Below are positions 1 to 20,100 of a stretch of 64,000 nt of DNA, in pieces. Origin of the DNA: the human T2T-CHM13v2.0 reference genome, Homo sapiens; NCBI RefSeq assembly GCF_009914755.1, contig NC_060935.1; one strand, given 5' to 3'. The position numbers were made by a program, and so were the translations under genes. The first letter of the stretch is position 1. Every line of letters begins with the position of its first letter. Under the pieces are notes generated by a model, which saw only the letters and a program-made list of their open reading frames with translations, had not been told where the DNA came from and made no database searches.

Positions 1-2079
1 GGGAGTCCTGGCTCCTGACTGCCCTGACCTTCTTCCTGCCACTGGGCCCATGATGGGGGTCCCCAACTTTCAAGAACACAGGGTAAGGGGTTTGTTTCCC
101 TGGTGGTGGGCGGGGGCATTCCTCAGCTTCGTGATGGGTCCTGAGTTTTCCAAAGGTCAGGATCCATGTCCTGGAAACGGATTCTGCTGTAGATGTGTGC
201 TTTTCTGTGAAATGACAGCTTAGTAAAAATACTTAAACTGGGGCTATTTGGAGACATCTAAGAGGTGGAGTGAGCACAACCTGGCACTAGTCGCCTCCCT
301 CCTGAGGCAGTTGACTGTCCGGCCTCTGCCCCTGGGCCCTTCCTCCTTCCCAGCTGCCCTGAGCCCTCTTCCAGCACCTCCTGTCCCCACCTCACACACT
401 AAGTCTTCCTGCTATTTTTAACTATTTGACATAATTTGCAAAAGAGAGAATAATAGTCCCAGCTCTTCCCAAGGACTTCTTTGTCCGGTGCCCATCTGAC
501 CTTGGCACTTTGTTGTGGGGGTGGCAGTGACCCTGACAAGTTCTCCCAGCCAGCGAGAGCACAGGCCTCCCATACAGTATCGTCAAGGTCAGCAGCCTCC
601 CGGGCAGGGGGGTTCTACTCCCCGCAGAAGCCCTGGCACCATGGCCAACTTGCTCACAGAGGGCACTCAGTCAGACCAAGGTGGGTTGGGGCAGAAAAGG
701 CTCCTTCAGAGATTCAAGGACAGTCACAACTGGTGCTGTGATGGGGCCACCGGGACAAGCACAGTGCAGGCCATTCCCATCAGCAGGGACCCAAGAGGAA
801 GTGGTAGGCTCTGGCAGTGGGGGCGGCTGGCGGTCCTGAAGACAGAGGGCTTTGCAAACCTAGGGGTGGAGGTAGTGGGATGTCAGCACCTGGGCTCCCT
901 GCTCAGAGGAGCTGGCGCCAGGATTCCCAGTGGGTGGGCTTGGGGAGGAGGCTGGAAAGGTTAGCACAGGCGAAAGTGTGGGGCCTAGGAAAGCTGGGCT
1001 CGCTTATTTGGCCAAGGAGGGTGGGGAGGGTTGGAGGAGGTCTAGGGGCCGCTGGAGGTGCAGGGCAGCCCGGGGAGGCAGGGCTATGGGGCCCAGCCAC
1101 GCATTCCACAGGCCTTCTCTCTGCGGGAACAGGAGTGAGGACACAGGCGCTCAGCGTGGCAGGGTGGGAACAGGAAGGTCTCGTGAGCTCTGTGACAGGA
1201 TGGGGCTACAGGAGACAGAGGTAGCAGTAAGCTGGTGAAGAGGCAGGAGGAGGCAAGGAGGACAGGGTGTTCTAGGGTGCCAGCTCAGGCAAGGCTCCAA
1301 GGAGTGGGTGAGTGCTCAGGAGGACGGGGGACCAAGGCCTGGGGTAAGGGGCAGGTGCCCAGGCACTCTAGCATGGCACGGAACAGGGGACAGTCCCAGG
1401 ACATCCGGATGCAGGGGGCTGACACCGCAAAGTTCTTTCCTGTAAAGCACAGCCCGAGGCCTGGGGCTTGGCCCTGGGCAGAGGAAGCCCCCCTTAGATC
1501 TGCCTTGGCAGTAGTGAGGAAAGGGCGTGCACAGACCCCACGCAGCCCGAGGTGACGGGTCAAATGCAAGAGTGAGAAGCCCCCTCCTGAGGGTCCTCCC
1601 CTGCCTCGCCTTCCTGGTGGGCGGCCTGCTTTCCAGCACATGTGGTGGACCAGCCCACATTAGGTCAAAGTGTTAAAAATAGCCGGAGGGCTCAGTATGT
1701 CTGGGGGGGGGGGGGGAATGGGAGGTGCTGAGGGAGGGCCCAGGACAGTTGGGAAGGAGGAAGGGCCCGTGGGGCTGGGGTTGGGACAGTCGGCTCCTGT
1801 AGGTGCAGCAGCCCTGGGGCATGCTCACCTCACCTCACCTCAGCTTTGTAAACCAGGGCCATGGGAGACCCCCTCCCTCTGATGCCCTCTCCCTCAAATG
1901 CCTTTGCCAACGTGTGGCTGAGAGTGCACCCCAGTTCCCCTTGGCCACCCCAGGCAGTCCCAGTCCACTGAGAGCAGCCGCTGTCCTTCTTCCCTCTCCT
2001 GCCTCCTGACCTGGGACCCCACAGAGCTGGGCCTGTCATCACATTTATGGGGCTGCAGCTGACCTGGGAACTCCCTTCC

Positions 2080-2390
2080 TCAGTCAGTCCACAAATATTT
2101 ACCCAGAGCCTCAGGGTGCTCAGTGACCTTTACAAAACAAAGTGCAGAGTCACGTGCCAGGGCACAGCAATCCCGGGCAAAACAGACCGGAACCCCTCCC
2201 TCGAGGAGATCAAGTTGGGGCGGCGCTTTAGAGTTGTGGTCAGGAGGCTGGCTGAGTGGTGACCTTAGGGCAGAGGCCTGAAGGAGCAGTGGAAGTGGAC
2301 TAGGCAGCAACTAGGTGAAGAGTGTTCCAGGAAACACTACACTGTCAGAATCAAGAGATGTTAGGGCCGAGAGGAGCCTCAAAATGGGGG
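2080..2390. mobile_element. Degenerate LINE-2-like fragment
   Basis: Motifs resembling L2 remnants (tcagtccacaaatatttac...; gtggtcaggaggct...ggcagaggcctgaagga); recognised by eye only. Confidence 0.4.
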
Positions 2391-2973
2391 AAGCAAGGCT
2401 GGGAGGGGTGGCCTACCCTGGTCACATGAGAGGTGGGGGCAGAGCAGGCCGGAGCCTCACAGGAAGAGGCCGGTTAGAGTTGGGGGTGGGGCCCAGCTTG
2501 TGTTTCCTGCACTGGCTGCGAGGCGTGAAAGGCGGGCTCCCGGCCAGCACACAGTGACAGTGCAGTTTCCAGACCCAGGCCCTGAGCTGAGGGGCCTCAG
2601 GGCTCAGAAAGGGCCTAGGCCTCAGATCTCTGGTGAGCGGGGAGCCCAAAATGGCCCTGGAGGCCACAGCTCCAGAACTAGACCCGTGGAGAATGGAGGG
2701 CTGGGGCCCTGCACATTCTCAAGCAGTAGTAGCAACACTGTCATTGTCCTGCCCTTGGTATAAGCCTGAAGAACCACCCTTTCTTACCCGGCTTCTGCTC
2801 CCCTTTTCCAGGGGCTCCTGTGGGAAATCCCGGGTACTTCCTGGGACTGGTCTGTCTATATGTTTGGAAACCACAGAGCTGACCTGGCTTCAGAACAAGA
2901 TGTGGGGCTCCAGGCACCCGGGAGACCAGTGACCCTGATTGGCAATAGCCGCAAGAAAGGGCTTGGAGACAGG

Positions 2974-3278
2974 GGCCAGGCGCGGTGGCTACCCCTGTAA
3001 TCGCAGCACTTTGGGAGGTCAAGGCAGGTGGATCACTTGAGGTCAGGAGTTGGAGACCAGCCTGGCCAATGTGGTAAAACCCTGTCTCTACTAAAAATAC
3101 AAAAAAAAAAAAAAAATTAGCCAATGTGGTGGTGTAAGCCTATAGTCCCAGCTACTCGGGAGGCTGAGGCAGGAAAATCACTTGAACCCAGGAGGGAGGG
3201 TGCAGTGAGCAGAGATCACACCACTGCACTCCAGCCTGGGCAACAGAGTGAGACTCCATCAAAAAAAAAAAGAAAAGA
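2974..3278 (+). mobile_element. Alu (AluS-like), full length
   Basis: GGCCAGGCGCGGTGGCT start, central A-rich linker, A tail; target-site duplication (TSD) AAGAAAGGGCTTGGAGACAGG at 2953-2973 and 3279-3299. Confidence 0.95.
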
Positions 3279-3924
3279 AAGAAAGGGCTTGGAGACAGGG
3301 CCCTAACCCTGGAATCCAGATGTTGCCAAAGCAGCCCCCTCCTGTTCCTCTGTCTGCCTGGGAAGAAGCAGGAGTTGGCCACCCACACAGGCAGGGCGGG
3401 CCCTTCACCACCCAGCTCCACCCCGGAATCCAAGGGCCTCTGTTTGCTGCTGTTTTCTGGAACAACTTGTTTTGATCTAGAGAAATCTGCTGACACCGGC
3501 CTTCCTGCTCTCACCCTCCAGCTGGGCAGAGGTATTTTTAGACTTATTTGTAGAGGAAGAGAGCAGAACCCAGGCCCAATGTGTACCCTCCTTACTGTGG
3601 GCACAGCTTTGGCCCCTTAAGGCAGGACAGAGATATCCATGTGGTTGTCTACCCTCAGCTCATCTCTCCTTAAATACATTCCTTTCCCGAGAAAAACGAG
3701 CTGTGTGGAACTTGGAGGCCAGCAAAGCTTCTACATAAGGACCCTCTGAAACAGTGCCCTTTTGTCCTTGAAAACCCAGGGTGGCAAAGGCAGCTCCAGA
3801 TACAAGGGCACAAAGGAGACTTGGTTCCCTTTGTGACAGGGAAGCCTATGCTTTACAGAATCCTATGTTTTGTATGTCAGTAATTCTCCCTACTTAAAAA
3901 AAAAATCTATATATATATATGTAT

Positions 3925-4180
3925 TAGAAAGGGTCTCACTCTTGTTGGCCAGCCTGGAGTGCAGTGGCACAATCATAGCTCACTGCAGCCTCAAAATCCT
4001 AGGCTCAAGGGATCCTGCTGCCTCAGTCTCCCCAGTAGCTGAGACTACAGGCAGTCATGTGCACCTGGCTTTTTTTTTTTTTTTTCTTTCATTTTTTGTA
4101 GAGACAGGGTCTTGCTGTGTTTCCCAGGCTGGTCTCGAACTCCTGGCCTCTAGGCAATCCTCCCACCTTGGCCTTCAAAA
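3925..4180 (-). mobile_element. Alu (AluJ-like), antisense
   Basis: gggtctcactct...ggagtgcagtggcacaatcatagctcactgcagcc...tttttgtagagacagggtcttgctgtgtt; reverse Alu dimer. Confidence 0.9.
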
Positions 4181-4631
4181 GCGAATGGATCCCACTCTTT
4201 TTTGAAAAATAAAATCTACCATAGTTTGTTTCTGGGATTTGGGAATGATGTGTGTGAATTAGAGAGATTTCGAGACCTGAAATAGAGAAAAGCAAGTTAA
4301 GACATCAACTGGGGCCCAGAAACAGCACTACAGCGGGGACGACCCACCTCTCAGATGCCTGGTGAGATAAAGAAAGGTCTGGCTGACTCCACTGCCCAGT
4401 ACTGTGAAGCAGCAGTGAAGACTCCTCCATTGGTTTCATAAGCTGCCCAGCTTTCTAGAACATTTTGACAGACAATTCCCTCTTTCCACACGGTTCTTTC
4501 AGGCCAAATCACCCCACCCCAACCCACCCCTGGAGATACAGTCAGGAAGAGACTGATGGGGCAGATCCTGGAGGAGGCCGCACTGCCGGAATCTTCCCCT
4601 GGCAGAGAAACAGGGCTAAGCAGGCGCCAGG

Positions 4632-4651
4632 GAGCAAGCCTGGGCTTGCCA
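4632..4651. promoter_or_regulatory. p53 response element upstream of NEAT1
   Basis: GAGCAAGCCT GGGCTTGCCA is two RRRCWWGYYY half-sites with no spacer and one mismatch, ~1.47 kb upstream of the TSS. NEAT1 is an established p53 target. Confidence 0.85.
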
Positions 4652-4680
4652 CATCACCACCTTCTGTGCTGAAGGTCAGA

Positions 4681-4855
4681 TGACACACAGTCACCAGTTT
4701 TCCGAGAAGCACAGGGAGGGGTGCATGTCAGGCCCAGCCCTGCCTGCTGATACCACCTCACAGACGCAGGCGAAATGTCTTCACCAGCTTCTTCTCGGTT
4801 GCCAAGGGGGCCTGCTTTCAAGGGGTTGTTTTGTATGGGGTGTGGGTGTTAACCA
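4681..4855 (+). repeat. Copy A of a ~170-bp direct repeat (copy B at 8590-8738) carrying STAT GAS and KLF motifs
   Basis: tgacacacagtcaccagttttccgagaa...gaaatgtcttcaccagctt...ggttgttttgtatggggtgtgggtgtta aligns colinearly with 8590-8738. Confidence 0.85.
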
Positions 4856-5329
4856 GGGAGAGGTTCCTGGCAGGAGTTCCTGTCAGATGCCATTTTCCAT
4901 TCTGGTTACTTGAACCGGGGTCCTTTTTCATCCTCTACCTCAGGGGCCAGAGCTTCCTCATCACCCTGCACCCCCTAGCAAGGGAGGTGCCCGCTACACG
5001 GTCCAAAGTCCTCTCCAGACATTCGGGCCCTGCCCGCCTTGCTGGAGGGCTCAGGAGTTCACCAGGTTTGCTTCCAGAAGAGCCAGGCTGGGGATGCCTG
5101 CTTGCAAATGCAGCAAATAAAAAATAAATAAATAAATAAAAATCACCTTTCTCCCCACCCCCACCCAAATGTAAAATGAGCCGACAGCCTGTCCCTCGGC
5201 TATGTCAGATACTGCTTTCCGCACAATATCTTGGTTTTACATTATTTTGCAACGGCCTCTTCCCACTTAATCCATCCTGAACACACTTCTTGAATGTTCT
5301 ACCCCGGCAGGGATGCGCATTCTCAGGAA

Positions 5330-6140
5330 ACACGTCCCCTCGCCAGGCCCCTGGGAAGAGTCAAAACCACGATGCCTGCCCCTGAAGCGCCCGCGCGGCT
5401 CCACGGGGCTCCATGTTGTCACCCACTAGCTCCTGGACGCTATCAGCCCGCAGCAGGGTTTCCTGGCCAGAGAAACCGCCTGTTGGGGTGCGGAGCGTTC
5501 CACGTCCCCTCGCAGCACCCCGCTGGCCTTCTGGGCCGCCCCGCCCCCAACCCGCGCCCGGGCGCTGACGTCATCGGCCGAGCCCGACTCGGAACCACCG
5601 CCCGAAAGTCACGCGCGCCTCCCGGCGGGACGCGCCCTCTGCAGAGATCCCTCCGCCGCCGCCTGGAATTTTCCAGATGTCCTGCCGGCCCTTCTTTCGG
5701 GCCTCGGCTGGGCGTGGTGACCTCAAGCGACCCCGGCGGCTCCCGTCGCCCACTCAAGAGGGCGCCCCCGCCCGCCACGCCCCCAGCCCCTCTCGGGGAA
5801 GCGCGTCCCCCGCCCGACCTCAACAACATCCGGGAAGAAAAGGGGTCTTCTTCCTCATGGCATTCGCCTCCCAAATGTCACCTTGAGCGCTGTCCGCGAT
5901 CCCAAAAAGCACTGTTAAAGAGAAGCGGGGATACACTGGGGTCCTTGCGTGGGGGCCGCCTGGGAGACCATGCACCGCCCGGGAGTCTCTCCGGGCAGGG
6001 TCGGGGAGGGACTTTTTTGCCGGTGGCCGTGGAGGAATCGTCCCGTTGAGCAATGACCCCGGTGACGCGGCTGAGGGCTATAAAAGCAAAAGTTGTGGCA
6101 AGTCCAGCCGGAGTTAGCGACAGGGAGGGATGCGCGCCTG
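5330..6140 (+). promoter_or_regulatory. NEAT1: NEAT1 CpG-island promoter
   Basis: CpG-dense. GC boxes ~5537-5548, full CRE TGACGTCA 5566-5573, HSE/kB-like CTGGAATTTTCCAG 5663-5676, half-CRE TGACG 6063-6067, TATA box 6079-6085. Confidence 0.9.
6079..6085 (+). promoter_or_regulatory. TATA box
   Basis: TATAAAA 31 nt upstream of the recognised NEAT1 5' end GGAGTTAGCGACAGGGAGG at 6110. Confidence 0.9.
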
Positions 6141-9100
6141 GGTGTAGTTGTGGGGGAGGAAGTGGCTAGCTCAGGGCTTCAGGGGACAGACAGGGAGAGA
6201 TGACTGAGTTAGATGAGACTAGGGGGCGGGCTGGGGGTGCGAGAAGGAAGCTTGGCAAGGAGACTAGGTCTAGGGGGACCACAGTGGGGCAGGCTGCATG
6301 GAAAATATCCGCAGGGTCCCCCAGGCAGAACAGCCACGCTCCAGGCCAGGCTGTCCCTACTGCCTGGTGGAGGGGGAACTTGACCTCTGGGAGGGCGCCG
6401 CTCTTGCATAGCTGAGCGAGCCCGGGTGCGCTGGTCTGTGTGGAAGGAGGAAGGCAGGGAGAGGTAGAAGGGGTGGAGGAGTCAGGAGGAATAGGCCGCA
6501 GCAGCCCTGGAAATGATCAGGAAGGCAGGCAGTGGGTGCAGGGCTGCAGGAGGGCCGGGAGGGCTAATCTTCAACTTGTCCATGCCAGCAGCCCCTTTTT
6601 TTCCAGACCAAGGGCTGTGAACCCGCCTGGGGATGAGGCCTGGTCTTGTGGAACTGAACTTAGCTCGACGGGGCTGACCGCTCTGGCCCAGGGTGGTATG
6701 TAATTTTCGCTCGGCCTGGGACGGGGCCCAGGCCGGGCCCAGCCTGGTGGAGCGTCCAGGTCTGGGTGCGAAGCCAGGCCCCTGGGCGGAGGTGAGGGGT
6801 GGTCTGAGGAGTGATGTGGAGTTAAGGCGCCATCCTCACCGGTGACTGGTGCGGCACCTAGCATGTTTGACAGGCGGGGACTGCGAGGCACGCTGCTCGG
6901 GTGTTGGGGACAACATTGACCAACGCTTTATTTTCCAGGTGGCAGTGCTCCTTTTGGACTTTTCTCTAGGTTTGGCGCTAAACTCTTCTTGTGAGCTCAC
7001 TCCACCCCTTCTTCCTCCCTTTAACTTATCCATTCACTTAAAACATTAGCTGGTCATCTGGTAAGCCCGGGACAGTAAGCCGAGTGGCTGTTGGAGTCGG
7101 TATTGTTGGTAATGGTGGAGGAAGAGAGGCCTTCCCGCTGAGGCTGGGGTGGGGCGGATCGGTGTTGCTTGCCTGCAGAGAGGGTGGGGAGTGAATGTGC
7201 ACCCTTGGGTGGGCCTGCAGCCATCCAGCTGAAAGTTACAAAAATGCTTCATGGACCGTGGTTTGTTACTATAGTGTTCCTCATGGCGAGCAGATGGAAC
7301 CGGGAGACATGGAGTCCCTGGCCAGTGTGAGTCCTAGCATTGCAGGAGGGGAGACCCTGGAGGAGAGAGCCCGCCTCAATTGATGCCTGCAGATTGAATT
7401 TCCAGAGGCTTAGGAGGAGGAAGTTCTCCAATGTTCTGTTTCCAGGCCTTGCTCAGGAAGCCCTGTATTCAGGAGGCTACCATTTAAAGTTTGCAGATGA
7501 GCTTATGGGGGGCAATCTTAAAAAGTCCACAGCAGATGCATCCGGCTCGAGGGGCCATCAGCTTTGAATAAATGCTTGTTCCAGAGCCCATGAATGCCAG
7601 CAGGCACCCCTCCTTTCCTGGGGTAAAGGTTTTCAGATGCTGCATCTTCTAAATTGAGCCTCCGGTCATACTAGTTTTGTGCTTGGAACCTTGCTTCAAG
7701 AAGATCCCTAAGCTGTAGAACATTTTAACGTTGATGCCACAACGCAGATTGATGCCTTGTAGATGGAGCTTGCAGATGGAGCCCCGTGACCTCTCACCTA
7801 CCCACCTGTTTGCCTGCCTTCTTGTGCGTTTCTCGGAGAAGTTCTTAGCCTGATGAAATAACTTGGGGCGTTGAAGAGCTGTTTAATTTTAAATGCCTTA
7901 GACTGGGGATATATTAGAGGAAGCAGATTGTCAAATTAAGGGTGTCATTGTGTTGTGCTAAACGCCGGGAGGGTACAAGTTGGTCATTCCTAAATCTGTG
8001 TGTGAGAAATGGCAGGTCTAGTTTGGGCATTGTGATTGCATTGCAGATTACTAGGAGAAGGGAATGGTGGGTACACCGGTAGTGCTCTTTTGTTCTTGCT
8101 TCGTTTTTTTAAACTTGAACTTTACTTCGTTAGATTTCATAATACTTTCTTGGCATTCTAGTAAGAGGACCCTGAGGTGGGAGTTGTGGGGGACGGGGAG
8201 AAGGGGACAGCTTGGCACCGGTCCCGTGGGCGTTGCAGTGTGGGGGATGGGGGTATGCAGCTTGGCACTGGTACTGGGAGGGATGAGGGTGAAGAAGGGG
8301 AGAGGGTTGGTTAGAGATACAGTGTGGGTGGTGGGGGTGGTAGGAAATGCAGGTTGAAGGGAATTCTCTGGGGCTTTGGGGAATTTAGTGCGTGGGTGAG
8401 CCAAGAAAATACTAATTAATAATAGTAAGTTGTTAGTGTTGGTTAAGTTGTTGCTTGGAAGTGAGAAGTTGCTTAGAAACTTTCCAAAGTGCTTAGAACT
8501 TTAAGTGCAAACAGACAAACTAACAAACAAAAATTGTTTTGCTTTGCTACAAGGTGGGGAAGACTGAAGAAGTGTTAACTGAAAACAGGTGACACAGAGT
8601 CACCAGTTTTCCGAGAACCAAAGGGAGGGGTGTGTGATGCCATCTCACAGGCAGGGGAAATGTCTTTACCAGCTTCCTCCTGGTGGCCAAGACAGCCTGT
8701 TTCAGAGGGTTGTTTTGTTTGGGGTGTGGGTGTTATCAAGTGAATTAGTCACTTGAAAGATGGGCGTCAGACTTGCATACGCAGCAGATCAGCATCCTTC
8801 GCTGCCCCTTAGCAACTTAGGTGGTTGATTTGAAACTGTGAAGGTGTGATTTTTTCAGGAGCTGGAAGTCTTAGAAAAGCCTTGTAAATGCCTATATTGT
8901 GGGCTTTTAACGTATTTAAGGGACCACTTAAGACGAGATTAGATGGGCTCTTCTGGATTTGTTCCTCATTTGTCACAGGTGTCTTGTGATTGAAAATCAT
9001 GAGCGAAGTGAAATTGCATTGAATTTCAAGGGAATTTAGTATGTAAATCGTGCCTTAGAAACACATCTGTTGTCTTTTCTGTGTTTGGTCGATATTAATA

Positions 9101-9844
9101 ATGGCAAAATTTTTGCCTATCTAGTATCTTCAAATTGTAGTCTTTGTAACAACCAAATAACCTTTTGTGGTCACTGTAAAATTAATATTTGGTAGACAGA
9201 ATCCATGTACCTTTGCTAAGGTTAGAATGAATAATTTATTGTATTTTTAATTTGAATGTTTGTGCTTTTTAAATGAGCCAAGACTAGAGGGGAAACTATC
9301 ACCTAAAATCAGTTTGGAAAACAAGACCTAAAAAGGGAAGGGGATGGGGATTGTGGGGAGAGAGTGGGCGAGGTGCCTTTACTACATGTGTGATCTGAAA
9401 ACCCTGCTTGGTTCTGAGCTGCGTCTATTGAATTGGTAAAGTAATACCAATGGCTTTTTATCATTTCCTTCTTCCCTTTAAGTTTCACTTGAAATTTTAA
9501 AAATCATGGTTATTTTTATCGTTGGGATCTTTCTGTCTTCTGGGTTCCATTTTTTAAATGTTTAAAAATATGTTGACATGGTAGTTCAGTTCTTAACCAA
9601 TGACTTGGGGATGATGCAAACAATTACTGTCGTTGGGATTTAGAGTGTATTAGTCACGCATGTATGGGGAAGTAGTCTCGGGTATGCTGTTGTGAAATTG
9701 AAACTGTAAAAGTAGATGGTTGAAAGTACTGGTATGTTGCTCTGTATGGTAAGAACTAATTCTGTTACGTCATGTACATAATTACTAATCACTTTTCTTC
9801 CCCTTTACAGCACAAATAAAGTTTGAGTTCTAAACTCATTAGAA
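6110..9844 (+). ncRNA. NEAT1: NEAT1_1 (MEN-epsilon), ~3.7-kb polyadenylated lncRNA isoform
   Basis: Recognised 5' sequence GGAGTTAGCGACAGGGAGGGATGCGCGCCTGG; AATAAA at 9815-9820 gives ~3.7 kb. Exact cleavage base is approximate. Confidence 0.95.
8590..8738 (+). repeat. Copy B of the ~170-bp direct repeat (copy A at 4681-4855)
   Basis: tgacacagagtcaccagttttccgagaa...gaaatgtctttaccagctt...ggttgttttgtttggggtgtgggtgtta. Confidence 0.85.
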
Positions 9845-9862
9845 TTGTTGTATTGCTATGTT
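9646..9862 (+). terminator. NEAT1_1 cleavage/polyadenylation module (isoform switch)
   Basis: Five TGTA (CFIm motif) at 9646, 9661, 9705, 9743, 9773; ACTAAT (QKI-type) at 9755 and 9784; TCCCCTT (hnRNPK-type) 9799-9805; AATAAA 9815-9820; GU-rich downstream element 9845-9862. Confidence 0.9.
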
Positions 9863-12793
9863 ACATTTCTCGACCCCTATCACATTGCCTTCATAACGAC
9901 TTTGGATGTATCTTCATATTGTAGATTTAGGTCTAGATTTGCTAGCTCCAAGTAATTAAGGCCATGTAGGAGAGCATGGTAACCACAGATAGAACTGGTA
10001 TTATCCCAAGTGGTCTGCAGACTGCTGAGTGGGGATGGGATCTGCTCTCTGTTGAGAGTTGGTAATCATTGGTTTGAAATGTGATGAAACCACTCAAGCC
10101 AATGAAGGTGGGTGTGTAGGTGGGGAGTACTTTGCCATAATATTTTAAAACATTACCTGGTTAGAGTTCTAAGTGGTACTTATTTTTGTTTGGTTAGGGG
10201 AAAGCCTGAATAAAAACAGAAATGGACACATAATATGCATATTCCATAGTCTTTGGGAGGCTGGAATGTGCCTGGGATTTGGGTCTAAGTGTATGCGTAA
10301 TTCTTACCTCACTAAAGAATTTGCCTTGTTTTTTTCCTTTTGGTGAGTGACTAAAACGTCTGGGCTTCCCTGTGTGCGTGCTACAGTAAGCAAGCAGAGG
10401 CTGTGCAAAGGTGTGAGCAGGATCACGTGGAATCTGGAGGATACATCTTGGCTTGCAAACTGCCTCTGTCTCCTGGGTGGGACTGTTCTGTCCTTGCACT
10501 GCTGTTCTGTGTTACCTCTTGGGGTGTAAGGTTTTGCTTACAGGAGACAAACTTTGGGCGTAGAATGGAAGCCACTGCCAGCCTCTGTGCTGAGAAGGAA
10601 GGTGCTTGTTTCAAAGGGAGCAGCAAGGGAGGCTTGTTCTACTCACCTGGGCCTGTTTGCCTGAGAAGGGGAGATAAGGGCTGAACTGGGACTAGCCAGG
10701 GGGACCAACACAAATGGTGGGGGATCATGACCTGAAGGATTCTTTCCTTCCCATGAGCTGCAGGGCTGGTTGCCGTCCTTGCAACTGTGTCTTATTTGCC
10801 TGTGCCGTTATATCTTGGTGACCCCTCCACGTGTACACTACTGACAAACGGGTGGAGTGCTGGGGAGAAGTCACTGTGCCGCCCACCTAGTAAACCTTCT
10901 GTCTGTGCTCATGGCATCTCCAAGATGGGGCACTGCTGTGTGCAGAATCCAGGGTCCTCTTTCTGCTTGCAACTCCTTTCCCTGGATGCCCCAGAAACAA
11001 TCCAGGCCTCCTTTCCTATCTTACCCCTTTGCTTTGCTTTTTACCCCAGCACCTCTATAACCGCCTTCTCTTCTTTTCAGAACTCCTTGTTTCTCATCCT
11101 GTTTTTTATGATTACAAAACTCTTGCTTCCACCCTGGAAGATAACTGCTATAGATGCCTGTATGTAAATGGTGCTGTCTCCAGCAACTGGCATGCTGAAG
11201 AAGAATTGATTCACGGGGTATAAATGTTGGGGATTGGAAGTGGGGATGAAATGGCACTTGTTGATACAGGAGCAGAGAGGTGAGGCCGACTGCTGAAGAC
11301 AGCTCGCCACCCTCCTTGCCTCCACTCCAATCCAGGGGCTGGGGCCACATTCTTTGCCTTCATTTATCCTCAGATCAGGTGAGATCGACAGGAGGTGTTG
11401 ATGGCAGTGCCAGCAATTATTGCTAATCCGTTTGCATCCTTATGCATAGATCTGAATTCAGACTTTGTGAATTTCCAGAGGTGTGGGTAATATAATAGAA
11501 TTCAGTGAGTGGGCATGGCTGATCTTGTGCAAATTAAAAGTTATGGGGCATAAGAATAGCAAAAGTTGAACTTCTTTTAAAAAGGAAAGTACCCTGAGAG
11601 CCAGTATTGGTTGAGGCTCTTCAGTATGCCCAGGTTGGCAGCACTGAGAACCGCAGGAACGGCCTGTTGTTACAAAAAGGAGATTGACTCAGCTGCCCTT
11701 GGTGCATCTGACTGACTATGACTGCTGAGAGATTCCAAGGACCCTTAATGCCAGGGCTAACCTCTCCATGTGCAGTGAGACCTCTGGAGGAAGTGTCATC
11801 CTCTGGCTTTGTGTGGTACTCATTATGGTGCAGTGCGGGCATGAAATGAAGACACCCAAATAGGCTTACAGATACGATATGTTTTAAATGTTCGTATTTA
11901 ACAAAAACATACTGACACTGTTTGGAAATGGCAACAGGAAGATAGCAAAATGAATACTAACATTACGAAAAGATGAACAGGTACATGTTCCAAGGCAGGT
12001 GGCTGTGAACTTCCTCTGAGTGAAGGCATCCCCTCCAGCACCTTTCAGCCTGCTAGTTAGGACGACCCGCCGCCACCCTCCAGGACCTCCAGCCCTGCAC
12101 TGCCTTTCCTCTCTTTTAAATAATTCTTCATTGAGTTCTAATATGTAAAAAAAAAAAGTTTACTGTAAAGTTTGCAAATAAGGAAATTTTTTTTAAAAGT
12201 CCTCAGTAATCTTACCAGTAACAATTGTTATGGGCACATTTGCTTTTGGAAGATTTCTTTTGTATGCATGGGATAAGTACATTTTTAAACAAAAATGGGA
12301 TTATGCCATAAATTCTATTTTGTGACTTTAATATATAGTGAACACCTTTTTTAATGATGACAGGATGTTCCCTTGCATGGCTGTATCAATTTAAACAATC
12401 TTGTTTCAATGGGCATACAGGGTATTTTCTAGTTTTTTTTTCCTCTTAGAAAATAATACTTGCGATGACTTTCCTTGTAGCTCAGACTTTTTCACGTCTG
12501 TTGTTATCTCTTTGGGAATGCTGAATACATACATTTCGAGAAGGAAATGACTGTTAAACTCTTAAGACTTCAGGTTCATATTGCTAAACTGCCCAGCAGG
12601 GAGGGATTTTTTCAATTAGTGTTCTCACTGGTGAGGCAAACCTGATGCCTTCCCCTCTTCCTCAGAACCGGCTTTATCACATTGAAAACCTTTGCTCCTC
12701 CGACGGATCGAGTCTGCTTTCCCTGTGGATGTGAGCATTGCTTTGTCTGCTGGTGACTGAACATCTCTACCATGTGTCAATTGGCCATTTGTG

Positions 12794-12802
12794 GTGTGTG
12801 TG

Positions 12803-12833
<31 letters not shown>
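12794..12833 (+). repeat. (GT)n microsatellite, a UG tract in NEAT1_2
   Basis: About 20 GT units with one GC interruption. Confidence 0.95.
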
Positions 12834-13354
12834 ATGATTTTCTAATTCCTAGTCATTTTTCTATTGATTGTTTTGCAAAAGCCATTTACATCTTAAGGAT
12901 ATTGATAATCTTTTGTTATATTTGATGCAAATATTTTTTTCCAGTTTATAGGTTGCCTTTTAATTTTGTGTTTCAGGTAGATAAAAGTTAAACGATTTTC
13001 TTAGGTTAGTTTATCACTGTGGTTTCTGAACTTGTTATGTGTAGATCTTTTCCACCCCAAGAGTACATAAATATTAATCCATACTTTCTTATGGAACTTG
13101 TATGGTTTCGTTTTTTACATTTAAACCTTCTTCCCCGTGGTGTGTGTTGTGGAATCTGTGTTTGTGTGAGGAGGGGCATGGTGCTCTCAGAACCCACCTC
13201 CTGTGGCCAGAGAGCCCTGTCCTGTGAGGGTGGTTATCACAGTGGCAGGGTTCAATTCAGAAGACCTTGAGGGCAGGCTGATGTTTCCTGAATGGGCCCC
13301 TGGTTGTTGCTTGTCCCTGACTCTCCATTTCCCCATCTGAGTGGATTTGGACCT

Positions 13355-13465
13355 AATAGGGCACTGGAGCTGGTTCGAATCCTGACTGGACTACTTGGCA
13401 ACTTTATGTCTGGGAGCAAGTTACTTAACCTCCCCAAGCCTGTGTCTGTGAAATGCGGGTAAATG
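13355..13465 (+). mobile_element. MIR SINE remnant
   Basis: GGTTCGAATCC (13372-13382) followed by MIR-core-like gcaagttacttaacctc...ctgtgaaatg. Confidence 0.7.
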
Positions 13466-14169
13466 AATGTAGATGTTTGGCAGCAGCTACTCCTTGTTGA
13501 GCTCTCACAGTGAACTCTCCTGCCTCTGCCCTCCTTCCCCGCCTCCCCTGGTGCCTAGCGTCAGGTCTAGCCACTTCCTCCTGGGCCCCTCTCCCTTTTC
13601 TGTGGCTGGCTGCCTGCCCGCCTGGCGCTGGACCTTTCATGTAACGGGAATCAGCATGTATATTCTGGTCTGGTCTGTTTCTACACTTAATTTTGTTTCC
13701 AGTAGTATTTCCCTGTACCGGCAGAGTTCACAAACACATTTGAAGAGGCTTTTTCTCAGGATTCTTAACCTTCCCAAAGGAAGTCCCATGGATGGGTTTC
13801 TAGAAGTCTATAAATGCTCTGAAATTGTATTTTTCTGTGGAAAGCATAACTTTCATCTGCTTGTTCGTGCTCAAAAAAGATCATGAATGAATGATTGCAT
13901 GATTTTATGCCATTGTGCTTATACTAAAGGATATGTAGCCCATCTCTTGAGCTGTTAAACTGTTTTGACTACTTTAAATCGTGCAGCTGTGAGCATCTCT
14001 GTAAATTTAGTGTACACATGTATCCCCTGGAGTGGCATTGCCTCGGCAGTGAGCACTTATGGTTTTATAACTCTCTTCACAGACTCAAATGACTCCAGAA
14101 AGCTACACTTCCTGTTGTGAGTATATGATATCCATTTCCCTACATAGCCACTAACATCAGGTTTTTACA

Positions 14170-15320
14170 ATTTTATTTATTTCTTGCTACTTTAAGAAAT
14201 TTTTGTGGTGAAATACATATAATAGAAGTTGACTATCTGAATCATTTTTAAGTATACATTCAGTAGTGTTAAGTATGTCGCCATTGTTGTACAACCAATC
14301 TCCAGAACTTTTTCATCTTGCAAAACAAACTCTGTACCCATTAAATAACATTAAACATTCCATTCCCTCCAGCCTCAGCAACCCCATTCTACTTTCTGTT
14401 TCTGTGAGTTTGACTATTCCAAGCACTTCATATCAGTTAAATCATGAAGTATTTGTCTGTCTGTGACTGGCTTATTTCTCTGAGCACAGTGTCCTCGAGA
14501 TGCGTCTATGTTGTAGCATATGTCAGAATTTCCTTCCTTTTTAAAAGATCCAAATAATATTCTTATTTTATATCTTTTTTTTATCCATTCATCCATTAGT
14601 GGACACTTGGGTTGCTTTTGGCTATTGTAAATAATGGTGCTATGTACAAATATCTATATTATTGTATTTACAAGTATAATGCTGTAATGTACACACATCT
14701 TTTTGAGATCCTACCTTCAGTTCTTTTGAGTATATAGCCAGAAGTGGTATTACTAAATCTTACGATATTTCTATTTTTAATTTATTGAGGAACCACTGTA
14801 GTTTTTCATAGCAACTGCACCATTTTACGTTCTCACCAAGAGTGCACAAGGGTTCCGAGGTTCCCACATCCTCCCCAACACTTGTTATTTTCTGCTTTTT
14901 TTAGATTGCAGCCATCATAGTGGGTGTGAGGTGACATTTCATTGTGGTTTTGATTTGCATTTCCCTAATGAGGAGTGATGCTGAGCATCTTTTCATATGC
15001 TTACTGGTCATTTGTATGTTGTCTTTGGAAAAATGTCTATTCAAGTCCTTTGACTATTTTAAAAATTGGGTTATTAGAGTTATCGTTGTTGTTGACTTGT
15101 AGGAGTTTCTTTCTATATTCTGGATATTAATCCCCTATCAGATATATGATTTGCAAATATCTTCTCTTATTCCATAAGGTTACTTTTTCACTTTGTTGAT
15201 TGTGTTCTTTGATGTATAGAAGTTTTTAGTTTTGAAATAGTCTAATTTATCTGTTTTTACTTTTGTGGTCTGTGCTTTTGGTGTCATATCCAAGAAATCC
15301 TTGCCAAATCCAACGTTATA
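14170..15320 (-). mobile_element. Old LINE-1 (L1M-type) 3' portion, antisense
   Basis: Reverse L1 motifs tttaagtatacattcagtagtgttaagta, ttatccattcatccattagtggacacttgggttg, gtggttttgatttgcatttccctaatg, ttttggtgtcatatccaagaaatc. Confidence 0.85.
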
Positions 15321-15374
15321 AGGTACTTTTAAGGTATTTTAGTTGTCTTAGTCTATATTTCTGTACTCACCTTT

Positions 15375-15525
15375 CTTTATCCACTCATCAGTTGATGGGC
15401 ATGTAGGTTGGTTCCATATCTTTGCAATTCTGAATTGTGCTGTGATCAGGTGTCTTTTTAGTATAATGATTTACTCTCCTTTGGGTAGATACCCAGTAGT
15501 GGGATTGCTGGATCGAATGGTTTTT
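15375..15525 (-). mobile_element. L1 fragment (L1PB/L1MA-like), paralogous to 16405-16545
   Basis: ttgggtagatacccagtagtgggattgctggatc motif. Confidence 0.75.
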
Positions 15526-15832
15526 ATAATTTTCTATTTTACCACAGTTTCTCTCTGCATTTTTCCTCTTTGACCACTAACCATGTGAAATTCTCATATT
15601 GACCTTTATAATGATCATGAACTCTTAGTATCATTGGGAAGGCCACATTTGCCACTTATGATTGTAAACCTTATCCTCCATTTTTCCTGTTATTGTTGGT
15701 GCAAAAAGCACCTATTATACCAGGACTTTAAAAATCAGTCTGATAAGTCTTTGATAAGTCTAATAATAATAACTGATAAGTCCATTGAATTTGCTTCTGA
15801 TTACTTTTTCTTTAGTAGCTAAACATGTATGT

Positions 15833-16097
15833 ACTCCTATGATTACAATGAACACTCCTCTCCATTTAAATTAATTATTTACATTGATGAAATAGCAAAA
15901 TGTTAATGACTAAATACTGTCTTGGTTTTTTCGTTCCAGGTCAGTCAATATTAACTTCTTATAATTTTCTTTTTTTTCTTTATGTGTGTGTGTGTGTGTA
16001 TTTTTTTTTTTTTAATTTCAATGGCTTTTGGGGTACAAATGGCTTTTGGTCATATAGATGAATTCTACAGTAGTGAAGTCTGAGATTTTACTGCACC
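15833..16097 (+). repeat. Copy 1 of a ~265-bp internal duplication in NEAT1_2
   Basis: Near-identical to 16874-17147, including a (TG)n tract and an L1 tail. Confidence 0.95.
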
Positions 16098-16545
16098 GGT
16101 CACCTGAGTAGTGTACATTGTACCCAATATGTGGTTTTTTATACCTTGCCCCCCTCTTACCCTCCCCACTTTGAGTCTCTAGTGTCCATTATGTCACTCT
16201 GTATACCTTTTTGTACCCATAAGTTAGCTCTCACTTATAAGTGAGAACACACAGTATTTGGTTTTCCATTCCTGAGTTGCTTCACTTAGAATAATATCCT
16301 CCAGCTCCATCCAAAATTGCTGCAAAAAAAAAAAAAACCACAAACATTATTTTGTTCTTTTTTATTGCTAAGTCATATTCCATGGTGTAGAGATACCACA
16401 TTTTATTTATCCACTCACTGGTTGATGGGTTGGTTCCACATCTTTGCAATTGTGACTTGTACTGCCATCAAGTGTCTTTCTGGTATAATGACTTCTTTTC
16501 CTTTGGGTAGATACCCAGGAGTGGGATTGCTAGATCAAATGGTTC
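16000..16545 (-). mobile_element. L1 (L1PB/L1MA-like) 3' end, antisense
   Basis: T-rich tail, then ttttggggtaca...gtctgagatttta...cacttataagtgagaac...cctccagctccatcca. Confidence 0.85.
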
Positions 16546-16873
16546 TTAACATTTTCTCTCTGGATCTATTTCTGGAAATTTTAGGCTCCAGTTTTTGTTG
16601 TTGTTGTTAATAAAATGCAATGGAATGTAATGATCATCACTTTTCATTATGCTTTAAAATCTGGTAAATGGAGGCTAGAACACTCCTGTAAGGCAAGAAT
16701 ATTCTCTCTGTTGGAACTCAAATACACAGAACTGGGTAAATCTCAATCTTAATCTTTGATTCAGGACACAACATGGCTCTCTTTTACTTGCTTTCTTTAA
16801 TTGTTTTTTAATAATGTGGTAAGCATTTCTGAATCTCCTATCCAATACAAAAACTAGGACAATACAGACAGTA

Positions 16874-17030
16874 ACTCCTATGGTTACAATGAACACTCCT
16901 CTCCACTTAAATTAATTATTTACACTGATGAAATTGAAATAGCAAAATTTTAATGACTAAATACTGTCTTTGATTTTTTGTTCCAGGTCTGTCAATATTA
17001 ACTTCTTATAATTTTCTTTTTTTTTCTTTA

Positions 17031-17061
<31 letters not shown>

Positions 17062-17147
17062 TTAATTTCAATGGCTTTTGGGGTACAAATGGCTTTTGGT
17101 CATATATATGAGTTCTACAGTAGTGAAGTCTGAGATTTTACTACACC
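16874..17147 (+). repeat. Copy 2 of the ~265-bp internal duplication
   Basis: Near-identical to 15833-16097. Confidence 0.95.
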
Positions 17148-20100
17148 TTCCACTTATGTGGTCCCACACCACCCGCCTCCCCTGCCGCCTCCTGCCACCC
17201 CCTAGGCCAAGGTAATAATCATCCTGAATCCTGGGTTTATCTCTCACTTGCTTTCTTTTCATATAATTTTGCAAAAGAATCTGATCTAAATGTGTTTTTC
17301 AGAGTATATATTTATATTTTAGCTGTTCTTAGAGAAAATTTATTATTTTGCATGTAATCTTATGGAACATTCTCATTTAATACCATGGTAAGATTCAGCC
17401 CTTGCCCAGGGGATAGTTCATTTAGTTTGTTTACTGGATAGAGCTCATCATGTGACTATACCTCAGTTAGTTTATCAGTTCTCCCATCCATGGTGACTAG
17501 GTTGCCTCTCAGCCTCTCAACAACACTGTTTCTCAGTGTCCTTGTAGAAGTGATATGTGGGTGTTTTCTCCTTACACAGAGTTGAAAGGTGACGACAACA
17601 ACGTTGGCACTACCAATCCCCCACCCTCCAGAGGGGTAACCAGTGTTACCAGTTTGCTGTGTTTCCTGCTACACCTCGCCTTATTCACTTCCATTTGTAT
17701 CTGAAAAACGTGTTGCATGGTTTCTTTTCTATAGAAGTGGTAAAATGCTATTGTGTCCTGTACATTATTGATTACTTTTTTTCATTTAACAGTAGGGAGA
17801 TGCCTGGGAGTACACAGAGAACTGCCCTCATTGTTTTCAACTTCTGCACTGTATGTCTGTGAGTTTAGCCATTCTGCTGTTAATGGAAATTTACAGTATT
17901 CTAATCTTTTGATATTACAAACAGTTCTGTGCGATCATCGTCATACACAACCCCTTGTGCACAATGCATGAGTGTTTCTCAGGGTAGGTACCAAGAAGTG
18001 AAATTCCTGGGTCATAGGGCGTGAGTCCGACATTTTTCTCCATTCTGCCCTGTTGCCCTCCAGAGTGGGTGTCCAGCTTTGCATACCTAAGTATGAGAGT
18101 ATCTGTTGTTCATATCCTCTACGACGCTCCATATATGAAACTTAAGTTTCTGCTAGTTGCCATCTTTGATCTATCATGTATGCAGTGACCTACTAAGACT
18201 GTAATTGGTACAGTAGATTCTTGTCATCTGTGTGTGAATTTAGCATTCATGGGCTTAATGCTGACAAGGCCCCCAGGGTCCAAGACATATAATCATGTAT
18301 AATTTTGTCAAGGTATAATTTTTTAAATTGCTTTTGTCATGTGTCTGCTGGTGATGCCCAACCCAGTGCTCTGCACCCAGGTCACACTGTGGCTTTGTCC
18401 TCTGCTTATGCCTGCATTGCAGCAACTGTCCTGAAGAGACCAAAATTATGCAGATTTAGGTAAGTCCATGGCTAATGTTATTATATTATGTGCTATTGTA
18501 ATGGATGGGGCTGTGGAGTGTATGAATTTATAAATCACTGGTCTTGTAATTAAAATTCAAACACTATAGAAAAAGGCCATGTAGAAGATAAAAGTTCCTC
18601 TATAATCCCGGACCCCTAAGATAACTACTAATGACAACTTCATTTATATTCCTTCAGACATTTTCTGGCTGTGGATGTACTAAAATGTATCCTATTATTC
18701 TCTGCCCTAAAATGGAATCATACAAGGTGTACTGTTATTTTTATGGCTCTATAACATGTCATATTGTACGTGTTGGTATGGTCATTTTAACCATTTTTCT
18801 AGTGATGGCTTTGAGGTTATTTGCAGTTTCCTAGCCATCTCAAAGTGTGCTGCGGGGATCTCTTTTGCATCCCTCTGGGTGCAGAGCTGAGGCACCCAGA
18901 GGCAGTGTCCAGAGGAGGCAGCATCTGTAGGTGTCTTCACCTGCTCTGGCTCTTGGCACATCTGGTTGGTGACACTGTTTTGTGAGATGGGTTGAAAGCA
19001 CGTGCTGCCAAAATAGAATAATGTTGGTCCTCTCCTCATGTGCCGTGGAACTGGGGTAAAACTGCGTAGTGGCTGCAGCTGCCTGTCCATACCGGAATCG
19101 AGTATAACACGGTGCCTGGCTTAGCACAAAACAGTAGTGGGTCCTGCAGGCCCCAGAGTCTAATTCCTGGTATTCTTTCCCCTACACAGATTAAATAAAC
19201 CAAAAACAAACTATTCTAGGAAAGCGTCTGTGACATTTGTAAAAAGTGGTATTTAATGATCTTTTATTCACTTGTCTGTTTAGTTTGTTGAAATCTTAAG
19301 TGGCATCCTGGTCTGGGAAGGAGTGCTGTCTGCGCCTGCCCTCCGCTGGGCACAGCGTGGCTGCTTCAGGGGCTAAGCACACACTTTCTGTCTTCTAAAG
19401 GGCTGCCACATGCCAGGAGCTCAGGTGTGAGCCCGGCTCTGGCTCTTACCTCATAGGGTCACTCATAGGGGCACAGGGAGCAGAACATTGTACACAGCGA
19501 GGCACCACCCGGCTTGGCATCTGCCTCGGTGGACTTACTACCTCTAGAAGGAAATACCTGAGTTCCTCTGGCCTCAGCTCCTAGAGTGACTGGTGTGCTG
19601 TCCCTGTTACTCTTCTGTCAAGGTGACAACTGTGTGACCCATCATCTGTGTGTCAAAGCAAGGCCCTGCCTGGGCCTCTGCTCCTGTGCTGACCCCAAAG
19701 GCAAATGCTTTGCTAGTTTCCTTCCAGTTAATTTCACCTATGAATAGATGTGTGAAAACTGTTCAAAGCCATACCTGCACATGTTTGAACTTCAAACCCT
19801 GTGGGTGATTCAGTGGCATCTTTCTCTAACCCCCAGCCTCCCTTCCCACAGAGGCCACCGTCATGGCCAGTTGCTGCAGTTTCTTTCCAGAGAACCTGTG
19901 TATGTGTAAAGCTGTACAGGCGTGGGTACACCACACAGCCTGTCTTGCACTGTGGACTGTTGAGTTACTAGTACATCTAGGTAAGCACCGCATATCTGTA
20001 TTCATGTCTGCCTTGGTCTTTTCAACATCTGTGTGGTAGCCGTGTTTGAATTACCCATTCCCTTTTTGGGGAACCATTAAGTTGTTTCAGCAATTTTTAC

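What the first reader, a model, noticed from the sequence alone, without database searches (positions are those of the whole stretch)
4681..8738. The upstream enhancer is paralogous to a segment inside the NEAT1_1 transcript
Seen: 4681-4855 and 8590-8738 align colinearly. Shared blocks include AGTCACCAGTTTTCCGAGAA (identical), AGGGAGGGGTG, GAAATGTCTTyACCAGCTTC, GCCAAG and GGGTTGTTTTGTwTGGGGTGTGGGTGTTA; the upstream copy has a ~20-bp insertion. I do not recognise it as a transposon. The best-preserved blocks contain the GAS site (4700 and 8609) and the KLF/CACCC box. Inference: an old ~3.9-kb-offset duplication left twin enhancers on either side of the TSS. NEAT1 RNA also carries homology to its own enhancer, which could allow R-loop or antisense-eRNA feedback. 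I do not recall this being described.
Basis: partly seen in the sequence, partly recalled or inferred. Interest (0 to 1): 0.75.

Follow-up and report, generated by a model that had tools for sequence, protein, structure and literature searches.

The report
Enhancer copy inside primate NEAT1 RNA
A 155-base stretch inside the human NEAT1 gene is an 86%-identical copy of a STAT3-responsive control element just upstream of the gene, likely pasted in by DNA repair during primate evolution, and whether the copy does anything is untested.

Summary
The duplication is real: 4677-4856 and 8586-8740 share 133 of 155 aligned bases, end sharply, and are the only two matches found in the genome. The upstream copy is a known element: its GAS site is the published STAT3 site at -1411 to -1402, 20 bp behind the p53 element's right edge plus the copy's first bases. 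Two published clues give direction: NEAT1 nt 2470-2609, which is the exon copy, aligns only within primates (12 of 64 species), and a mouse ChIP primer maps onto the upstream copy across the 22 bp the exon copy lacks. So the upstream element is likely the old donor and the exon copy a primate insertion; the '20-bp insertion' is likely a deletion in the exon copy. Size, distance and missing poly(A) fit the known class of repair-mediated duplications; two more such pairs lie within 17 kb. Twin-enhancer function is open: motifs are kept more than chance (about 1%, post hoc), but the 20-bp block is not, and no data show activity. R-loop feedback is unsupported. I found no description of this pair in print.

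The parts
4677..4856 (+). Upstream copy, -1433 to -1254 from the NEAT1 start; likely donor
   Evidence: inside RefSeq cis-regulatory region 4350-4934 (hub table) and inside the -1561 to -1251 reporter of PMC5309293 (window 4549-4859)
4632..4651 (.). p53/p63 response element, 25 bp left of the upstream copy; not duplicated
   Evidence: only p53 20-mer with 2 or fewer mismatches in 1-12000; ChIP amplicon 4607-4710 of PMC13548822; mouse primer matches 19 of 23 here
4700..4708 (.). GAS/STAT3 site of the upstream copy, tested in print
   Evidence: -1411 to -1402 in PMC5309293 equals window 4699-4708
4728..4749 (+). 22 bp present only in the upstream copy; likely ancestral, deleted from the exon copy between two TG dinucleotides
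   Evidence: mouse ChIP primer aligns to 4733-4751, 14 of 19, shuffle P = 0.004; no source within 3 mismatches in 264 kb
4838..4846 (+). KLF/CACCC-type box of the upstream copy (motif recalled; binding untested)
8586..8740 (+). Exon copy, NEAT1 nt 2477-2631; likely primate-specific acceptor
   Evidence: nt 2470-2609 aligns in 12 species, primates only, against 41 and 47 for the neighbouring regions (PMC5909464)
8609..8617 (.). GAS site of the exon copy, identical to the tested upstream site; binding untested
8722..8730 (+). KLF/CACCC-type box of the exon copy, in a GU-rich stretch of the RNA
6110..6110 (+). NEAT1 transcription start, between the copies (TATA box about 30 bp upstream)
   Evidence: hub table

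Best explanation
The two stretches are a unique, sharply bounded local duplication, likely made when a DNA break 2.5 kb inside NEAT1 was repaired in a primate ancestor by copying about 180 bp of the gene's own upstream STAT3 element into the exon, where the copy is likely a passenger or weak STAT site. Shown: two copies, 86% identity, sharp ends, no poly(A), p53 element left out. From print: the upstream GAS is a working STAT3 site; the exon segment aligns only in primates. Inferred: direction (upstream to exon), synthesis-dependent strand annealing as the pathway, a later 22-bp deletion in the exon copy, an age of roughly 40-75 million years, and little function of the exon copy.
For: Two matches only in 3.1 Gb with DNA queries of either copy and with two 28-nt patterns at 3 mismatches; the same search finds 79-85% copies of a real repeat. 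Flanks at shuffle level. Length 155-180 bp and gap 3.7 kb match repair-mediated duplications: mean 162 bp, under 5 kb, no poly(A) (PMC2671141). No tail or target-site duplication over 4 bp. Exon segment: 12 of 64 species, primates only; neighbours 41 and 47; the human interval 2116-2610 is 494 nt against 212 nt in mouse. Mouse primer pair spans the p53 element and 4733-4751, about 120 bp. Exon copy is GC-richer (0.52) than its 200-bp flanks (0.35, 0.42). Divergence (14%, CI 9-21%) is like that of Alu pairs nearby (non-CpG median 0.118, 186 Alus). Two more two-copy pairs lie within 17 kb.
Against: No ortholog could be fetched, so the empty site and breakpoint signatures were not seen. The mouse evidence is one 21-nt primer (14 of 19; equal or better scores occur elsewhere in 3300-9800). 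Mouse also fails to align at nt 2290-2434, so only the 12-against-41/47 contrast is specific. Composition likelihoods for the exon copy are mixed (-5.6 to +6.0). Against 'passenger': all 14 motif hits of the upstream copy survive in the exon copy (null 6.0, P = 0.0005; 1.3% of shuffled panels), which a neutral acceptor would rarely do.
Confidence: 0.6

Rival explanations
1. Same origin, but the exon copy was kept by selection as a second, intragenic STAT3/KLF enhancer that backs up or boosts cytokine induction of NEAT1 in primates.
For: 14 of 14 motif hits of the upstream copy are kept (null 6.0; 35 of 2687 shuffled panels, 1.3%, keep all theirs); 46-odd motif columns carry no breaking change; the two neighbouring duplications and 58 of 60 Alu pieces show no such excess. 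The twin GAS is identical to a tested STAT3 site.
Against: The 36-motif panel was recalled and written after seeing the sequence. GAS alone P = 0.24, GAS plus KLF P = 0.053, longest block P = 0.68, mismatch clustering not significant. Reverse direction 14 of 21 (P = 0.05). The p53 element was not copied. The hub table shows a silencer call at 8563-8612; 24 enhancer rows were not shown to me. Constraint could act on the RNA instead.
Confidence: 0.23
2. An old duplication shared across mammals, or the reverse direction (exon sequence copied upstream, creating the STAT3 element).
For: The right half is G/T-rich like the NEAT1 body (keto fraction 0.53-0.59 against 0.45 in upstream flanks); the exon copy has 7 private motif hits and the upstream copy none.
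Against: Exon segment aligns only in primates; mouse primer maps into the upstream copy on bases the exon copy lacks; mouse p53 peak lies at the analogous place (PMC5538433).
Confidence: 0.07
3. The copy was made through RNA (an enhancer or FRMD8 read-through transcript reverse-transcribed into the break), or both copies are remnants of an old dispersed repeat.
For: A FRMD8 isoform exon covers the upstream copy on the same strand (hub table). Very old repeats below about 70% identity could escape the genome search; no Dfam library was available.
Against: No poly(A), no target-site duplication; none of 39 proximal duplications examined by Pace et al. had a tail; no third copy genome-wide or by profile search of 264 kb (best other E = 1.7).
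Confidence: 0.07
4. NEAT1 RNA feeds back on its own upstream element through the shared sequence, by R-loop or by pairing with an antisense enhancer RNA.
For: The RNA is made 4 kb away at very high level; a duplex with a hypothetical antisense transcript would be stable (-242 kcal/mol against -52 and -52 for self-folding).
Against: The invader is far weaker than the resident strand (-138 against -262 kcal/mol, DNA parameters as a proxy); longest perfect run 20 nt. No antisense transcript is listed there; the overlapping FRMD8 exon is same-sense (hub table). The segment is absent outside primates although NEAT1 regulation by p53 is shared with mouse.
Confidence: 0.03

Closest known systems
Repair-mediated duplications (Pace, Sen, Batzer, Feschotte 2009, PMC2671141; parts 1-4 of 8 read)
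   Same: 50-619 bp (mean 162), donor under 5 kb from acceptor, one other copy, no poly(A), mostly primate-age; 22 of 824 carried predicted factor sites, 21 of them kept in the acceptor.
   Different: Their acceptors were found as interruptions of transposons; this one lies in a lncRNA exon and its donor is an experimentally tested enhancer of the same gene. Breakpoints were not verified here.
Doublets, short paired duplications (Thomas et al. 2004; seen only as described in PMC2671141)
   Same: Short, local, two-copy, ascribed to break repair.
   Different: Those surveys took identical or nearly identical pieces under 100 bp; this pair is longer and 14% diverged.
NEAT1 -1.4 kb p53/p63/STAT3 element (PMC5538433, PMC13548822, PMC5309293; passages read)
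   Same: The upstream copy is this element: same GAS site, beside the same p53 element.
   Different: None of the passages read mentions a second copy in the exon. Another paper (PMC6960067, passages) found STAT3 at a different promoter site.
Shadow or twin enhancers arising by duplication (recalled)
   Same: Two similar motif clusters flanking one promoter.
   Different: Activity and redundancy of the exon copy are not shown.

Membership tests
Repair-mediated duplication (Pace 2009) | Length 50-619 bp | tested here: met
   155 and 180 bp
Repair-mediated duplication (Pace 2009) | Copies more than 50 bp and less than 5 kb apart | tested here: met
   3729 bp between 4856 and 8586
Repair-mediated duplication (Pace 2009) | Only one other copy in the genome | tested here: met
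   2 matches; the tool warns that common words are skipped
Repair-mediated duplication (Pace 2009) | No poly(A/T) tail or retrotransposition marks | tested here: met
   junction view and search for target-site duplications: 4-mers only
Repair-mediated duplication (Pace 2009) | Empty orthologous site in outgroups | tested here: inconclusive
   indirect only: primate-only alignment counts in PMC5909464; no outgroup genome held
Repair-mediated duplication (Pace 2009) | Microhomology, filler or deletion at the breakpoints | not testable with these tools
   needs the empty site; a shared CTGAA left of both copies is only a hint
Segmental duplication | Over 1 kb and over 90% identity | tested here: not met
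   155 columns, 86%
Dispersed repeat (transposon) | Many genomic copies | tested here: not met
   2 candidates against 4885 for a control repeat
Dispersed repeat (transposon) | Match to a Dfam or Repbase family | not testable with these tools
   no such library offered; Rfam has no match at either copy
Twin (shadow) enhancer | Upstream copy has regulatory activity | not testable with these tools
   shown in print by reporter deletion and ChIP (PMC5309293); coordinates matched here
Twin (shadow) enhancer | Exon copy has regulatory activity | not testable with these tools
   no chromatin data held
Twin (shadow) enhancer | Motif positions more conserved than the rest | tested here: inconclusive
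   P from 0.68 (longest block) to about 0.01 (post hoc panel with shuffled-panel control)
Duplicated element conserved across mammals | Both copies present outside primates | not testable with these tools
   print argues against it for the exon copy (PMC5909464)

The most novel reading that the evidence does not exclude
Primates gained a second STAT3/KLF enhancer inside the NEAT1 exon by copying the gene's own upstream element without its p53 site, and selection kept it; NEAT1 is therefore wired to cytokines differently in humans than in mice, and the same bases double as a primate-only module of the RNA.
Probability: 0.2. Interest if true: 0.62.

Novelty: new member of a known kind. Interest (0 to 1): 0.38.

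Why it matters
It gives an origin for the one primate-only subdomain noted in NEAT1's short isoform: it appears to be a copy of the gene's own STAT3 element. If the copy is active, mouse models lack one STAT input to NEAT1, and deletions in the 2.5-kb region of the exon would remove DNA regulation as well as RNA sequence. Practical even if inactive: 8 Cas9 sites in the exon copy have 1-2 mismatches to the upstream element, so reagents aimed at nt 2477-2631 can hit the p53/STAT3 element. As a class the event is ordinary: over 800 such duplications are known in human transposon DNA alone.

Tried and rejected
Whole 3.9-kb tandem unit: rejected; flanks and the next unit score like shuffles. One off-diagonal alignment, 823-1329 with 6067-6559 (287 of 445), beat all 50 shuffles but is purine-rich and weak (2950 against maximum 2704); not followed. 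The first shuffle test used gap costs that were too low and was replaced. Third copy near MALAT1 or FRMD8: none in 264 kb. Rfam: no family on either copy. Primer artefact: a common NEAT1 qPCR forward primer and a ChIP reverse primer lie in the shared block, but their partners are unique, so no cross-product is expected. A genome-wide background rate of such pairs was not obtained; only 264 kb was surveyed. A CRISPRi screen paper that might explain the RefSeq region 4350-4934 was not held. The reported isoform-switch role of NEAT1 2.1-2.8 kb is recalled; searches did not confirm it. Numbering of PMC5909464 was matched by length (3,735 nt = 6110-9844), not by primers (one search found none).

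Full report
Observation. The two stretches align colinearly on the same strand. With HOXD70 scoring the local alignment is 4677-4859 with 8586-8743, score 9369, against 100 dinucleotide shuffles with mean 1342 and maximum 2523. Over 4677-4856 and 8586-8740, 133 of 155 columns are identical; the 22 mismatches are 13 transitions and 9 transversions, K2P 0.16, mismatch CI 9-21%. Gaps of 22, 2 and 1 bp all lie in the exon copy. Homology stops at both ends: left flanks were matched or beaten by 105 of 200 shuffles, right flanks by 31 of 200, and the next 3.9-kb unit by 5 of 30. So a short piece was duplicated, not a 3.9-kb unit.

Copy number. DNA searches of the T2T genome with either copy returned 2 of 2 candidates, the two copies. 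Two 28-nt patterns with up to 3 mismatches each gave the same 2 places and 0 for the reversed control. The tool skips common words, so I used a control: a neighbouring repeat piece gave 4885 candidates with copies at 79-85% identity. A profile of the pair found no third copy in 264 kb that includes FRMD8 and MALAT1 (best other E = 1.7). Rfam matches neither copy. Dfam could not be run, so a very old repeat under the donor is not excluded.

The upstream copy is a known element. A p53 element lies at 4632-4651, 25 bp left of the copy and outside it. p53 binds 1.4 kb upstream in human and 1.3 kb in mouse (PMC5538433, passages), and a p53/p63 ChIP amplicon spans 4607-4710 (PMC13548822, passages). 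One other paper found STAT3 at a different promoter site (PMC6960067, passages).

Direction and age. Lin et al. (PMC5909464, passages and supplement table) aligned 14 subdomains of the 3,735-nt isoform across 64 species. Twelve had at least 40 species; nt 2470-2609 had 12, primates only, while its neighbours had 41 and 47. With the start at 6110 that region is window 8579-8718, that is 133 of the 155 bases of the exon copy. In their table human 2116-2610 (494 nt) faces 212 nt in mouse, though mouse also fails at 2290-2434. Second clue: the mouse ChIP primers of PMC5538433 (Table S1). One matches the p53 element (19 of 23). The other, reversed, aligns best within 4656-5200 at 4733-4751 (14 of 19; P = 0.004 for 4656-4900 and 0.015 for 4656-5200 by shuffling; P = 0.62 on the exon copy), giving an amplicon of about 120 bp. 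That site sits on the 22 bp that the exon copy lacks. Equal scores occur elsewhere in NEAT1, so it is the position and orientation that count. The 22 bp lie between two TG dinucleotides and have no local source, as a deletion would. The exon copy is GC-richer than its flanks, but Markov scores are mixed. Together: upstream is likely ancestral, the exon copy a primate gain. Divergence is like that between local Alus (non-CpG pairwise median 0.118, quartiles 0.098-0.151, 186 elements). From recalled primate branch lengths that allows about 40-75 million years; whether the 12 species include a strepsirrhine I could not see.

Mechanism. Pace et al. (PMC2671141, parts 1-4 of 8) describe 824 human repair-mediated duplications: mean 162 bp, under 5 kb apart, no poly(A) in 39 of 39 examined, 513 of 1,136 duplicons primate-wide, ascribed to synthesis-dependent strand annealing. 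This pair meets size, distance, copy number and lack of a tail; breakpoint marks need an empty site and were not tested. The class is common, and the locus has more: 313-438 with 1656-1791 (inverted, 2 genome matches) and 15833-16097 with 16874-17147 (91%). A looser census of 264 kb listed 8 pairs: these three, two inside NEAT1 that look like repeat pieces (one confirmed), and three weaker unverified ones elsewhere.

Is the exon copy selected? Results point both ways. Against: the 20-bp block is ordinary (expected longest run 22.9, P = 0.68), GAS alone P = 0.24, GAS plus KLF P = 0.053, mismatch clustering P = 0.19-0.34. For: with 36 recalled motifs, 14 of 14 overlapping hits in the upstream copy (six clusters) survive in the exon copy (null 6.0, P = 0.0005); the reverse is 14 of 21 (null 8.8, P = 0.05). 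Of 3000 shuffled panels, 2687 had six or more hits and 1.3% of those kept all. The two neighbouring duplications showed no excess (P 0.25-0.41) and 2 of 60 Alu pieces reached P of 0.05. The panel was written after I had seen the sequence, so this is a lead. No chromatin data were available; the hub's table shows a silencer call at 8563-8612 and hides 24 enhancer rows.

RNA feedback. NEAT1 RNA has the same sense as the upstream top strand. With DNA parameters as a proxy, the exon copy pairs with the upstream bottom strand at -138 kcal/mol against -262 for the resident strand, and the longest perfect run is 20 nt. An R-loop is thus disfavoured. Pairing with an antisense RNA would be stable (-242), but none is listed there.

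Novelty. Ten full-text searches (listings seen, ten papers opened) showed no description of this pair. The 545-species NEAT1 study (PMC12941219, passages and first supplement part) has no occurrence of 'duplicat' or 'paralog' and analysed 1 kb of promoter. Most subscription papers are not held, bioRxiv supplements are closed, and I did not check Table S1 of Pace et al. Verdict: a real, likely undescribed member of a known class, joining two published facts that had not been linked; function of the exon copy unproven. Interest 0.38.

Noticed in passing
window 313-438 and 1656-1791: A second two-copy local duplication, inverted, 107 of 138 aligned bases identical (K2P 0.28), only two genome matches; the second copy overlaps RefSeq enhancer 1313-1898 and silencer 1647-1696.
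   Followed up: partly
window 15833-16097 and 16874-17147: A third, younger local duplication inside NEAT1_2 (91%, 777 bp apart) with a TG repeat; its right end runs into what looks like L1 sequence (recalled label) in the first copy.
   Followed up: partly
window 1-17200: Three two-copy duplications lie in 17 kb of the NEAT1 locus and no verified one in the other 247 kb surveyed; a possible germline break-repair hot spot, but the background sample is small.
   Followed up: partly
window 15372-15535 and 16402-16557: Two pieces of a dispersed repeat (4885 candidates genome-wide); used as positive control.
   Followed up: yes
window 8603-8622 and 4690-4710: A widely used NEAT1 qPCR forward primer and a p53 ChIP reverse primer both lie in the shared block (2 and 1 mismatches to the other copy); partner primers are unique.
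   Followed up: yes
window 823-1329 and 6067-6559: Weak purine-rich alignment with the NEAT1 5' end that beat 50 of 50 shuffles; probably composition.
   Followed up: no
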